Positions 11,780 to 14,700 of a stretch of DNA of 58,385 nt are shown here, piece by piece. Source of the DNA: Malacoraja senta (Eukaryota); NCBI GenBank assembly GCA_038087875.1, contig JAXLNO010003785.1:1-58385 (forward strand), in the 5' to 3' direction. Numbering within the stretch: position 1 is the stretch's first letter; every line of letters begins with the position of its first letter. The position numbers were made by a program.

Positions 11780-14700
11780 TGTTTTGCAGTTGTATTTTAA
11801 CACCATAATTTAACACCATATTTTAACACCATAATGTTTTGTTTAAGAATATGGACCATATGTTTATTAATTATCAAGTATTGTTGATTCTCTTTATCTG
11901 TATTCCCTGACCACGTGCATGCAACAGTTGGTGAAACGCTGCATATGGATCCTATGATATCGGTAAATTGGTGTTATTCATCATATGGTTGAATATTTTC
12001 ATTGGTTTAGGCAGGTTTTCAGAAGAATTCCGCTTTTTTCTTAATTTATTTAACTTTTCCACAACTTGATTTATAAAAAATATAGAACTTACTGTAAAAA
12101 CCGTATGATTCTGCATTAGTCATGATATTAGTATGGACAATATAATCTGTAATAATAGAGTGGCACAGCGGTAGAGTTAATGCCTAACAGTGACACAGAC
12201 CCTGGTTCAATCCTGACCATGGGTGGTGTCTGTACGGAGTTTGTAAGTTCTCCCCATCACCTGCGTCGTTTTTTTCCAGGTGCTCCAGTTTCCTTCCACA
12301 TTCCAAAGACGTGCAGGTTTGTAGGTTCATTGGCTTTGGTAAAATTGTAAATTATCCTGTGTGTGTGTGTGTGTGTGTGTGTGTGCATGTGATAGTGTTA
12401 ACGTGTGGGGATTTCAGGTTGACGCGGACTCGGTGGGCCGAAAACGTCAAGTATTGCTTTTCTCCAGAAATGCTGCCTGGCCCACTGAGTTACTCCAGCA
12501 TTTTGTGTCTACCTTCGGTGTAAATCAGCACCTGCAGTTCCATCCTACACATCTTCACTGCACAAATTGTGTCTGCCTTGTTCATAGTACTCACTAAGGA
12601 GTCTTTCAAGTCATACTTTTTCTCCTTTTGGTGCAGGGTTTGACCTGTGTTCAAACTGCCAGTACTCACTCACGGCTGATAGTTGTCATGCTGAACAAAG
12701 CACCTGGTTCCTCAACATGCAAGTGCATCTGCCAACCCCCGCAGTGGCCCTCTGACATGACTGGAGTCTATTTGATTGAATTCACACAAGAGCCATTCTT
12801 CTTTAATTTTTGTCTTTAGTTTGTGTGCTCTTTTTCTGGCTATGCAGTGCCAGGAAAATGATGTATGCTAAACGGCATAGAAAACTGTTAAAATATGTCC
12901 ATCTTGTTTTATTCCACAGTCTCCAACCAAACTGTACATATGTGTATACACAATACATACATATCAATCCCTTAAGATGTATGAAATATTACAATTTCTG
13001 TTTAAGATATGATAAGAATGATATAAAGCCATCAGAAAATATTTTGTATTGGTGGGAATGGTACAGAGGGTGAAAGTGTGAAAGGGAAGTTGGTGACAAT
13101 AGAAGACAAATTTAAAGTAACCAGCGATCCTCAGAAACTGGCAGGCATTGCAATCTGAATGAACCATCTGAAATGATGGTGGAAAAAGGAGTGAGGTTTC
13201 AGGGCTAGTGGGAAAGAGCAGGGGCTTGAGATGAATTGGACTCTCATTGAAGTGGCCCAGGTCAAATGCAAACAGTGCTGTACTATTTTGTGAATCTGAA
13301 ATACATGAACACGATTATGACAATAGTTTATATAAATGTTCATTAACTAACTAATTTAGTATCAAACAACAACTATTAATACAGTAATTACAGTGACTAA
13401 AGTGCAAGTTACCAAAACTACCACAGATATTAATTTACAACATTTGGCTCTTTTGAGCTCAGATTCTTTTTTTCTCAGTAAAGAATCATATCCTGGTGTA
13501 TAAATGTCATCCAACCAAAACTTCAGGTCATTTGGATCCTCCTAAATGAAAAATAAATTGAAACAATTACTAATGATCCTTACTGAGATTCAGCGCTAGC
13601 CTATCGCAGTGGCCGCAGTGAAATTTCCTCAGAACGGAAATGTAGTATTTATCCTGATACCTCTAATCCTAATTTACTTCACATCTAAATCTTTTCTGAT
13701 GTTCATGAAAAAATGCATCAGGACAAGGAAGTCCAAAATCTGTTTGGGCATGAAGTGATGCATAACCTTTGTTGGTAGGCTAAGGGCCTTCTGAAATAAT
13801 TGTCACATCATCCCGCAAGGGTTAAAGGCACAAAGATAGTTTGTTGCATTAAGAAATTAGATACATGCAGCATTTCTCTTAAACACCCAATGTAACTTCA
13901 ACCATTTGTTTTCCAGGGAATACACATCTGCAAAAGTTGCACACAGTACAAAAGTCATGTATAATGAAAAATGTTGGTTCATAAACTCATTTTTTTCTTA
14001 AACTTATCTGAGCTACGCTGCTTCTATTAATGTCTAGATATAATACTCAGATCCAGTAATTACGCATGGGAAAACTGACACAAGATTGAACAATGTCTCT
14101 GGCAAATTCTCACAGTTTATTTCTATTAAAGAATGCCAGAAGAACAGTAATTAGGACAAGAACTGGACATGCTATGACAAACACTCACTGTAAGGATTCC
14201 AGACTATCCTTTAGACTGTCAAACATAGAATAGTAAGATTAAACGAGAACTTACAAGTTTGAAGTTTGATCTTTATTTTATGAGGAGTTACGTTGGTGAT
14301 TACGTGAAGAAGACCCGTCAGGGTGCATGCGCGTCAATCTTCAAAGCAGCGGTATGAAATCACAGACAACACCATAATTGAAGTAACATATTAAGATGAT
14401 CAACATGAGAACTACCATTATGACCTTTTTTCTATGAGAGAGGGTTGGGCGTGGCGGGCACGTAATCACCAACGTAACTCCTCATAAAATAAAGATCAAA
14501 CTTCAAACTGGTAAGTTCTCGTTTAATCTTACTATTTTACTTCGGAGTCACGTGAGTGACTACGTGAAGATTTTAAAGCTCTGTGATTTTTATGCCGCAG
14601 ATCAAAATCCCGGCTTCTCACTGTATTGATTGACTCTGAGTATCATCAATATTGCTGTAAACATGACATTGCATATCATGCAAAAACAAAACAGTTGTAT

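What the first reader, a model, noticed from the sequence alone, without database searches (positions are those of the whole stretch)
13362..13541. Orphan, intact MINAR2-like terminal exon oriented opposite to CHSY3
Seen: an open 60-codon exon with acceptor and stop on the - strand. I searched by eye for the expected upstream motifs (PNNNHP.KFLQLDV; NPLY...PSWT.EEY) between 13.5 kb and the window end and did not find them. From memory, mammalian ADAMTS19-MINAR2-CHSY3 are co-oriented, whereas here the exon is head-to-head with CHSY3. The transposon/TSD spanning gap 2 shows the orientation across that gap is consistent. Possible explanations are a lineage-specific inversion, a truncated tail-anchored micro-protein driven from the CHSY3 CpG island, a duplicated exon, or highly diverged upstream exons. 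The peptide also retains MINAR1-like residues (DIYTPGYDSLL, RAK.CK), informative for the ancestral state.
Basis: partly seen in the sequence, partly recalled or inferred. Interest (0 to 1): 0.65.

Follow-up and report, generated by a model that had tools for sequence, protein, structure and literature searches.

The report
Last exon of skate MINAR2
This is the genuine final coding exon of a skate's MINAR2 (a small membrane-anchored hearing gene), sitting next to CHSY3 but pointing the opposite way, and its missing front exons are most likely just outside the window rather than lost.

Summary
Window 13362-13541 (- strand) is an open 59-codon frame plus TGA behind a good acceptor. It matches the last 59 positions of Pfam MINAR1_C (E 5e-25) and is 58/58 identical to the C-terminus of the annotated 195-aa MINAR2 of the skate Rhinoraja longicauda (57/58 to Amblyraja radiata).

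No trace of residues 1-136 exists anywhere in the window on either strand (tblastn, profile search, k-mers). CHSY3 exon 1 lies at 47326-48234 on the + strand, so the two are head-to-head as assembled.

"Orphan" is not established. Two related skates have complete gene models ending in this exon, and the N-terminal block is too conserved to be missed, so "diverged upstream exons" is rejected.

The upstream exons therefore lie outside the window. Either they sit more than 44.8 kb upstream beyond CHSY3 exon 1, giving an interleaved antisense arrangement, or this segment is rearranged or misassembled. No vertebrate genome or RNA-seq resource was available to decide.

Overall this is an ordinary known gene with an unresolved local orientation puzzle.

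The parts
13362..13541 (-). MINAR2 terminal coding exon (exon 3): CDS 13541-13365 (59 codons, or 58 if the downstream AG is used and the exon starts at 13538), stop TGA 13364-13362
   Evidence: ORF; Pfam MINAR1_C 102-160/160, E 5.1e-25; 58/58 to Rhinoraja, 57/58 to Amblyraja behind the boundary residue
13539..13562 (-). Splice acceptor region: pyrimidine-rich tract and tandem NAGNAG acceptor (tag|GAG|GAT; AG at 13543-13542 and at 13540-13539), intron phase 0
   Evidence: sequence; 75% pyrimidine; the two skates, Hypanus, Scyliorhinus canicula and Callorhinchus read K|DPND, Pristis reads KE|DPND, 11 of 11 bony vertebrates read KE; human exon 2 ends with the last base of codon K131
13365..13433 (-). 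Codes the C-terminal 23-residue hydrophobic segment LISVVVLVTCTLVTVITVLIVVV (transmembrane tail anchor ending at the last residue)
   Evidence: Kyte-Doolittle mean 3.05 over the last 19 residues; zebrafish Minar2 has a transmembrane helix at the carboxyl terminus, PMC9714970 passages
47326..48234 (+). CHSY3 coding exon 1 (303 codons from ATG; donor GT at 48235-48236), opposite strand to the MINAR2 exon, 33.8 kb away
   Evidence: (ORF, donor GAG|GTGAGA; Pfam Fringe 1.5e-19, CHGN 9.2e-12; best hits named chondroitin sulfate synthase 3; 91% to Hemitrygon; 99% to Amblyraja and Leucoraja CHSY3)
46001..49000 (.). G+C-rich, CpG-enriched block around the CHSY3 start (GC 0.56-0.63, CpG obs/exp 0.53-0.75 per kb)
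20420..24382 (+). DNA transposon spanning gap 2: 13-bp terminal inverted repeats CAGGGCTGCCAAC (20426-20438 and, inverted, 24364-24376), 6-bp direct duplication TAATTG (20420-20425, 24377-24382), inserted in a SINE whose two halves flank it
   Evidence: (right SINE half also matches a SINE at 39428-39554)
21759..21970 (.). N run (212), inside the transposon, between a GA-rich and a TG-rich simple repeat; left unfilled
778..934 (.). N run (157); lies 3' of the exon on the - strand, so cannot hide collinear upstream exons; left unfilled
14227..19222 (-). About 5 kb mobile element with tyrosine-recombinase-like ORF, filling the first 5 kb upstream of the exon (same strand)
   Evidence: repeat boundaries; ORF 14784-15089: Pfam Phage_integrase E 5.5e-06, 26.7 bits, just under the 27.1 cut-off; the other seven ORFs of this element that were scanned gave no credible family (two chance-level matches, E 0.13 and 0.17)
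9261..10188 (-). Partial second copy (95-97% identical, same orientation) of the 3' end of that element, 3.2 kb downstream of the stop codon

Best explanation
The feature is the bona fide last coding exon (exon 3) of the MINAR2 (KIAA1024L) orthologue of a skate. The species is a Rajiformes distinct from Rhinoraja longicauda, Amblyraja radiata and Leucoraja erinacea.

How it works: the pre-mRNA is spliced in phase 0 from an exon ending in a lysine codon into the tandem acceptor at 13541 or 13538. The exon then supplies a conserved cytosolic block (DPNDLKFW..DIYTPGYDSLL), a basic stretch with two cysteines, and a 23-residue transmembrane helix that ends at the last residue. That helix anchors the otherwise soluble 195-aa protein in membranes.

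The exon is not an orphan in the biological sense. The exons for residues 1-136 are simply not within these 58 kb.

Shown: identity of the exon, its boundaries, the absence of partner exons from the window, the strand relative to CHSY3 exon 1, and the consistency of the join across gap 2.

Inferred: that the gene is intact, and that its 5' exons lie outside the window. If the assembly is right they are more than 44.8 kb upstream on the - strand, beyond CHSY3 exon 1 and inside CHSY3 intron 1.
For: - Pfam MINAR1_C positions 102-160/160, E 5.1e-25.
- All 15 hits of a longer-protein search are 195-215-aa MINAR2-type proteins of cartilaginous fishes and coelacanth.
- Identity behind the boundary residue is 58/58 to Rhinoraja and 57/58 to Amblyraja. 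Both are complete 195-aa RefSeq models.
- YTPGYD.LL and the C-terminal hydrophobic run are conserved in 17 of 17 named MINAR2 proteins.
- The exon boundary K|(E)DPND equals the human exon 2/3 boundary: c.393 is the last base of exon 2, codon K131 (PMC9245706 passages).
- Hydropathy is 3.05 over the last 19 residues.
- CHSY3 exon 1 lies 33.8 kb away. MINAR2 and CHSY3 sit on contigs of identical length in 15 of 15 chondrichthyan species for which both lengths were listed.
- There is no amino-acid change in 58 residues against Rhinoraja. The neighbouring CHSY3 exon 1 differs from Rhinoraja at 14 of 307 aligned columns. This is weak evidence of continued constraint.
- The 1.7 kb around the exon (12552-14225) is single-copy in the window.
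Against: - No exon for residues 1-136 exists in 58,016 non-N bases on either strand. tblastn with 15 proteins gave a best non-exon E of 0.48. The profile search gave a next-best E of 0.83, and that hit falls in the transmembrane part. There were 0 shared 6-mers or 7-mers.
- With the strand as assembled, an intact gene needs a last intron of more than 44.8 kb that contains the CHSY3 CpG-rich promoter and first exon in antisense. That is an unusual layout. It differs from the co-oriented ADAMTS19-MINAR2-CHSY3 order that I recall for human and mouse (recalled, not checked by any search).
- No transcript evidence was available.
- The window's own species has no MINAR2 protein in the database searched. 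Leucoraja erinacea, which has a CHSY3 entry, has none either.
Confidence: 0.62

Rival explanations
1. The exon is real, but its strand in this window is wrong or lineage-specific. A segment carrying exon 3 is inverted relative to the rest of MINAR2, either through contig-internal misassembly or through a true recent inversion. Exons 1-2 lie to the left of the window on the + strand, co-oriented with CHSY3 as recalled for mammals.
For: - Flipping the exon would restore the order MINAR2 exon 3 then CHSY3 exon 1 on one strand, with nothing between them. That matches the mammalian layout (recalled).
- The exon lies on a 20.8-kb stretch bounded by two N runs.
- The neighbourhood is full of young repeats: 95-97% identical copies at 9261-10188 and 14227-15272, with internal 78-81-nt inverted arms. 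These are the kind of sequence at which assemblies and genomes rearrange.
- The alternative layout is complicated in evolutionary terms.
Against: - The join across gap 2 is supported by an intact insertion signature: TIR, 6-bp duplication and two halves of one SINE. A simple flip of the 935-21758 contig is therefore excluded.
- Both repeat copies flanking the exon are collinear with each other, which argues against a flip through their inverted arms.
- A search for repeats split into oppositely oriented halves found only palindromic MITE-like elements and adjacent LINE copies, with no breakpoint signature.
- A true inversion would break a gene whose loss causes deafness in human, mouse and zebrafish.
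Confidence: 0.25
2. This is a duplicated, inverted copy of the exon-3 segment (a pseudo-exon). The working MINAR2 gene, with its own exon 3, lies elsewhere nearby.
For: It would explain an intact exon with no partners in an odd orientation close to the expected locus. Young mobile elements flank it.
Against: - There is no second copy of the exon or its flanks in the window.
- The frame, acceptor and stop are intact, with 0 changes in 58 residues against Rhinoraja. This fits a used exon as well as or better than a decaying copy.
- No sign of a duplication boundary was seen.
Confidence: 0.08
3. This is a truncated tail-anchored micro-protein. A transcript started divergently from the CHSY3 CpG-rich promoter splices a short novel first exon into this acceptor.
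For: The exon is on the strand that a divergent transcript from the CHSY3 promoter would use. The exon alone would encode a tail anchor.
Against: - The exon has no methionine, so it needs a coding first exon for which there is no evidence.
- The two related skates have ordinary 195-aa models.
- No transcript data are available.
- Short proteins appear in the representative search. They are unnamed, were not fetched, and could equally be fragments.
Confidence: 0.03
4. Upstream exons are present in the window but too diverged to recognise.
Against: - The N-terminal block MDLSVLPNNNHPDKFLQLDV and the PSWT block are nearly invariant from chimaera to marsupial.
- The nearest relatives are 97-100% identical in exon 3, yet share no 6-mer of residues 1-136 with any frame.
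- tblastn and the profile search are empty.
- The only 5-mer lead (DLSVL at 28470, - strand) sits in ...SDLSVLGLLL*, a chance match.
Confidence: 0.01

Closest known systems
MINAR2 ('major intrinsically disordered NOTCH2-binding receptor 1-like') of the skates Rhinoraja longicauda (XP_078252910.1) and Amblyraja radiata (XP_032874674.1), 195 aa
   Same: The last 58 residues are identical to Rhinoraja or differ at one residue from Amblyraja (S/T). The stop position is the same (protein ends ...LIVVV). The chromosome is shared with CHSY3, judged by equal contig length.
   Different: Those are complete models with residues 1-136, whereas the window holds only the last exon. Their models start the exon at D (downstream AG), whereas the open frame here also allows E. 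Their strand relative to CHSY3 could not be looked up.
Human/mouse MINAR2 (KIAA1024L), exon 3 of 3; deafness gene (PMC9245706); zebrafish minar2 (PMC9714970)
   Same: The exon 2/3 boundary falls after a lysine codon in phase 0. A C-terminal transmembrane helix is present. The YTPGYD.LL core is shared with the one mammalian MINAR2 aligned (marsupial, Gracilinanus agilis), at 53% identity over this exon.
   Different: About half of the residues differ. The mammalian gene is recalled to be co-oriented with CHSY3 at a larger distance, whereas here it is antiparallel at 33.8 kb. No human sequence was fetched or compared.
MINAR1 (KIAA1024/UBTOR) C-terminal domain, Pfam PF06789
   Same: The same Pfam family. 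Proteins of 559-909 aa match this exon with their C-terminal ends in the representative search.
   Different: All 15 hits of the longer-protein search are short (195-215 aa) MINAR2-type proteins. MINAR1 is a roughly 900-aa protein (recalled). Residue-level comparison with MINAR1 was not done because no named non-human MINAR1 was at hand.

Membership tests
MINAR family (Pfam PF06789, MINAR1_C) | Significant match to the family profile above its curated cut-off | tested here: met
   88.8 bits against a cut-off of 25, E 5.1e-25, profile positions 102-160 of 160
MINAR family (Pfam PF06789, MINAR1_C) | First 101 positions of the domain (N-terminal and middle conserved blocks) present in the same gene | tested here: not met
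   Not found anywhere in the window on either strand. This says the window lacks them, not that the genome does.
MINAR2 (short paralogue) rather than MINAR1 | Nearest relatives are the roughly 190-215-aa proteins, with the exon forming their C-terminus | tested here: met
MINAR2 | Invariant core YTPGYD.LL followed by a basic stretch and a C-terminal transmembrane helix | tested here: met
   invariant columns Y14 T15 P16 G17 Y18 D19 L21 L22; hydropathy 3.05 over the last 19 residues
MINAR2 | Three-exon structure with phase-0 boundary after a lysine before (E)DPND | tested here: inconclusive
   The acceptor position and phase fit. Exons 1-2 and the donor were not available.
MINAR2 | Linkage to CHSY3 | tested here: met
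   CHSY3 exon 1 is 33.8 kb away. Contig lengths are equal for both genes in 15 of 15 chondrichthyans with both values.
MINAR2 | Same transcriptional orientation as CHSY3 (recalled for human and mouse; not a formal defining feature) | tested here: not met
   The exon is on the - strand and CHSY3 exon 1 on the + strand. Orientation in other vertebrates is not testable with these tools.
Tail-anchored membrane proteins | Single transmembrane segment at the extreme C-terminus and no N-terminal signal peptide | tested here: inconclusive
   The C-terminal segment is met. The N-terminus is not in the window.

The most novel reading that the evidence does not exclude
In skates, MINAR2 and CHSY3 are interleaved antisense genes. 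MINAR2 is read from the - strand with its first two exons inside CHSY3 intron 1. Its last intron, more than 44.8 kb long, swallows the CHSY3 CpG-rich promoter and first exon. Transcription of a hearing gene would then run head-on through the promoter of a chondroitin synthase. This layout differs from the co-oriented tandem order recalled for mammals, so it would imply at least two rearrangements that kept both genes intact.
Probability: 0.3. Interest if true: 0.4.

Novelty: already known. Interest (0 to 1): 0.2.

Why it matters
MINAR2 is a small, poorly understood membrane protein whose loss causes deafness in humans, mice and zebrafish (PMC9245706, PMC9714970). Finding its last exon in a skate is expected and adds an orthologue, not a new kind of thing.

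The one point of wider interest is structural. If the assembled strand is right and the gene is intact, MINAR2 and CHSY3 overlap head-on in skates. That would be a natural case for studying transcriptional interference and the evolution of a conserved gene neighbourhood. If the strand is wrong, the finding flags a local assembly error that would make annotation pipelines miss the gene in this species.

Tried and rejected
1. **Upstream exons.** I searched with tblastn (15 proteins), a profile built from them against 3628 six-frame pieces, motif regexes and exact k-mers. There was nothing. The lone 5-mer lead is chance.

2. **Contig flipped at gap 2.** Rejected because of the TIR, target-site duplication and split-SINE signature.

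3. **LINE fragments as inversion scars.** I asked whether the fragments at 3.6-5.2 kb (-) and 20.45-21.24 kb (+) are two halves of one element split by an inversion. They are not. The right one is a clean 5'-truncated insertion inside the DNA transposon, and both carry the same 3' end.

4. **Systematic search for split repeats.** I looked for repeats split into oppositely oriented halves. The 63 candidate pairs are all explained by palindromic MITE-like elements or adjacent LINE copies, so the test was uninformative.

5. **RefSeq accession numbers as a proxy for gene adjacency or strand.** MINAR2 and CHSY3 accession numbers differ by about 170 to more than 40,000 in the 13 species compared. 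This was uninformative.

6. **Literature on gene order.** A search for MINAR2 plus CHSY3 gave 4 papers (cattle and human association studies; listing only). 'synten' and 'phylogen' have 0 occurrences in PMC9714970. I found nothing on MINAR2-CHSY3 orientation in these two searches.

7. **Pfam on the mobile-element ORFs upstream of the exon.** One near-threshold tyrosine-recombinase match turned up. Seven of the eight ORFs from this element gave nothing credible. The ninth ORF in that call, 33386-34105, lies elsewhere and also gave nothing.

8. **Residue-level comparison with MINAR1.** Not done. The long proteins are unnamed and were not fetched.

9. **Joined models.** Each exon was searched on its own.
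Full report
**Observation**

The - strand of the window carries an open frame from 13541 to 13365 (59 codons) closed by TGA at 13364-13362. It is preceded by ...caatttatttttcatttag|G, a pyrimidine-rich tract (75% over 20 nt) ending in AG. The TAG of that acceptor is also the upstream stop of the frame. A second AG three bases in (tagGAG|GAT) makes a tandem NAGNAG acceptor.

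The peptide matches Pfam MINAR1_C at 88.8 bits (cut-off 25), E 5.1e-25, over profile positions 102-160 of 160. In a profile search of all 3628 six-frame pieces of the window it is the only hit (E 1.4e-34; next best 0.83). The feature is real and far beyond chance.

**Identity**

A search among longer proteins gave 15 hits. All are 195-215-aa proteins of cartilaginous fishes and coelacanth, named 'MINAR1-like' or MINAR2. The best is the 195-aa protein of the skate Rhinoraja longicauda (XP_078252910.1). Its 90% cluster holds one more member, from Amblyraja radiata (XP_032874674.1).

Behind the boundary residue, the window is 58/58 identical to Rhinoraja and 57/58 to Amblyraja.

In an alignment with 17 named MINAR2 proteins from chimaera to marsupial, Y14 T15 P16 G17 Y18 D19 L21 L22 of the exon are invariant, and the C-terminal hydrophobic run is conserved. 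So 'DIYTPGYDSLL' is the core of MINAR2 itself and needs no MINAR1-specific explanation. A residue-level comparison with MINAR1 was not possible, because the long proteins that match are unnamed and I did not fetch them.

**Exon boundary**

[quoted passage not shown] That is a phase-0 boundary after a lysine.

In one search the two skates, Hypanus, Scyliorhinus canicula and Callorhinchus read ...K|DPND, Pristis reads ...KE|DPND, and 11 of 11 bony vertebrates read KE. This fits use of either AG of the tandem acceptor here.

**Function of the part**

The last 23 residues (LISVVVLVTCTLVTVITVLIVVV) have a mean hydropathy of 3.05 over the final 19 residues, and they end the protein. Gao et al. describe a transmembrane helix at the carboxyl terminus of zebrafish Minar2, localisation to lysosomal membranes and hair bundles, and cholesterol-recognition motifs (PMC9714970; passages seen).

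I infer that this exon supplies the juxtamembrane conserved block and the tail anchor. This is an inference from homology and was not tested here.

**Where is the rest of the gene?**

Residues 1-136 are strongly conserved and nearly identical in close relatives, yet they are absent from the window:

- tblastn with 15 full-length proteins finds only the last exon; the best other E is 0.48.
- The profile search finds nothing else.
- Six chondrichthyan relatives share 0 six-mers and 0 seven-mers of that part with any of the six frames. The 30 five-mer matches are scattered, and the one that looked like the N-terminus is chance.

This rejects 'diverged upstream exons'. The window has two N runs, 778-934 and 21759-21970. 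The first is on the 3' side of the exon. The second lies inside a transposon (see below). I did not fill either.

**Neighbourhood and orientation**

CHSY3 coding exon 1 is at 47326-48234 on the + strand. It has a donor GT at 48235 and sits in a G+C- and CpG-rich block. It hits Pfam Fringe and the start of CHGN. Its best relatives are named chondroitin sulfate synthase 3.

- A 13-bp terminal inverted repeat, CAGGGCTGCCAAC, sits at 20426-20438 and, inverted, at 24364-24376.
- It is flanked by the direct repeat TAATTG (20420-20425 and 24377-24382).
- The outer flanks are the two complementary halves of one SINE.

A flip of the 935-21758 stretch would destroy this signature. The 5 kb directly upstream of the exon is a mobile element with a near-threshold tyrosine-recombinase ORF on the same strand. 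A 95-97% identical partial copy lies 3.2 kb downstream of the stop. The 1.7 kb around the exon is single-copy in the window.

**What follows**

With the assembly taken at face value, a collinear gene must have its first two exons beyond 58385. That is past CHSY3 exon 1 and hence inside CHSY3 intron 1, with a last intron of more than 44.8 kb that contains the CHSY3 promoter in antisense.

The alternatives are a contig-internal misassembly or true inversion of a segment carrying exon 3, or a duplicated copy of the exon. My test for inversion scars (repeats split into oppositely oriented halves) gave only palindromic elements and adjacent LINE copies. The collinearity of the two flanking repeat copies argues against a flip through their short inverted arms.

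Linkage is conserved: MINAR2 and CHSY3 entries sit on contigs of identical length in 15 of 15 chondrichthyan species for which both values were listed. That says nothing about strand. RefSeq accession numbers proved useless as a proxy.

No vertebrate genome collection, RNA-seq data or paper on this gene order was available. Searches are the searches, and 'synten' has 0 occurrences in PMC9714970.

**Source organism**

CHSY3 exon 1 of the window differs from Rhinoraja at 14 of 307 aligned columns. It differs from both Amblyraja and Leucoraja at 7 of 303, of which 4 are an (SN)2 repeat-length difference. The window is therefore from another skate whose proteins are not in the database, so the absence of 'its' MINAR2 there means nothing.

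Zero changes in 58 residues against Rhinoraja, beside 14 differing columns in the neighbouring exon, is weak evidence that the exon has stayed under constraint.

**Verdict**

The 'orphan' reading is most likely an effect of the window's edge or of a local rearrangement or assembly problem.

I did not build or search any joined exon model; each exon was searched on its own. The supplementary figures of the two MINAR2 papers could not be seen.

Novelty: already known. Interest is low, with a modest upside if the interleaved antisense layout proves real.

Noticed in passing
window 20420-24382: DNA transposon of about 3.95 kb with 13-bp TIRs and a 6-bp duplication (TAATTG). It carries three same-strand copies of its 5' head (20427, 22357, 23200), a nested 5'-truncated LINE (20450-21246) and the N run. 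After the second head there is a Kozak-like ATG followed by a GT donor (about 22586-22620), possibly the first exon of its transposase. Another copy of the element's tail lies at 58291-58348 in the opposite orientation.
   Followed up: partly
window 9261-10188 and 14227-15272 (also 7404-7716 and 18908-19222): The MINAR2 exon is bracketed by 95-97% identical direct repeats belonging to a young tyrosine-recombinase-type element. The full copy spans about 14.2-19.2 kb on the - strand. The repeats contain 78-81-nt internal inverted arms. Unequal recombination between them would delete the exon.
   Followed up: partly
window 48285-48682: Tandem repeat of about 79 nt (86-92% identical copies) starting 50 nt after the CHSY3 exon 1 donor. 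It keeps the exon's reading frame open as a proline-rich read-through to 49161.
   Followed up: no
window 47326-48234: The CHSY3 exon 1 has an (SN)n run two repeats longer than in Amblyraja and Leucoraja, and an acidic E-rich stretch that varies among skates.
   Followed up: partly
protein database, not the window: Leucoraja erinacea has a CHSY3 entry (XP_055488818.1). No MINAR2 protein of Leucoraja appeared, and none is in the skate MINAR2 cluster, although two other skates have one. The same locus may be troublesome to annotate in that assembly too.
   Followed up: no
window 6390-6582, 57468-57688, and copies at 12438-12551, 28816-28919, 40754-40887, 41943-42079, 46002-46131: A short palindromic (MITE-like) repeat family is scattered through the window, including one copy in the CHSY3 upstream CpG-rich block.
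   Followed up: no
window 3573-6239, 20455-21240, 24669-26250, 43716-45579: There are at least six 3'-end fragments of one LINE family (reverse-transcriptase hits). Two pairs are arranged head-to-head (3573-5154/5533-6239 and 43716-44820/44826-45579).
   Followed up: partly
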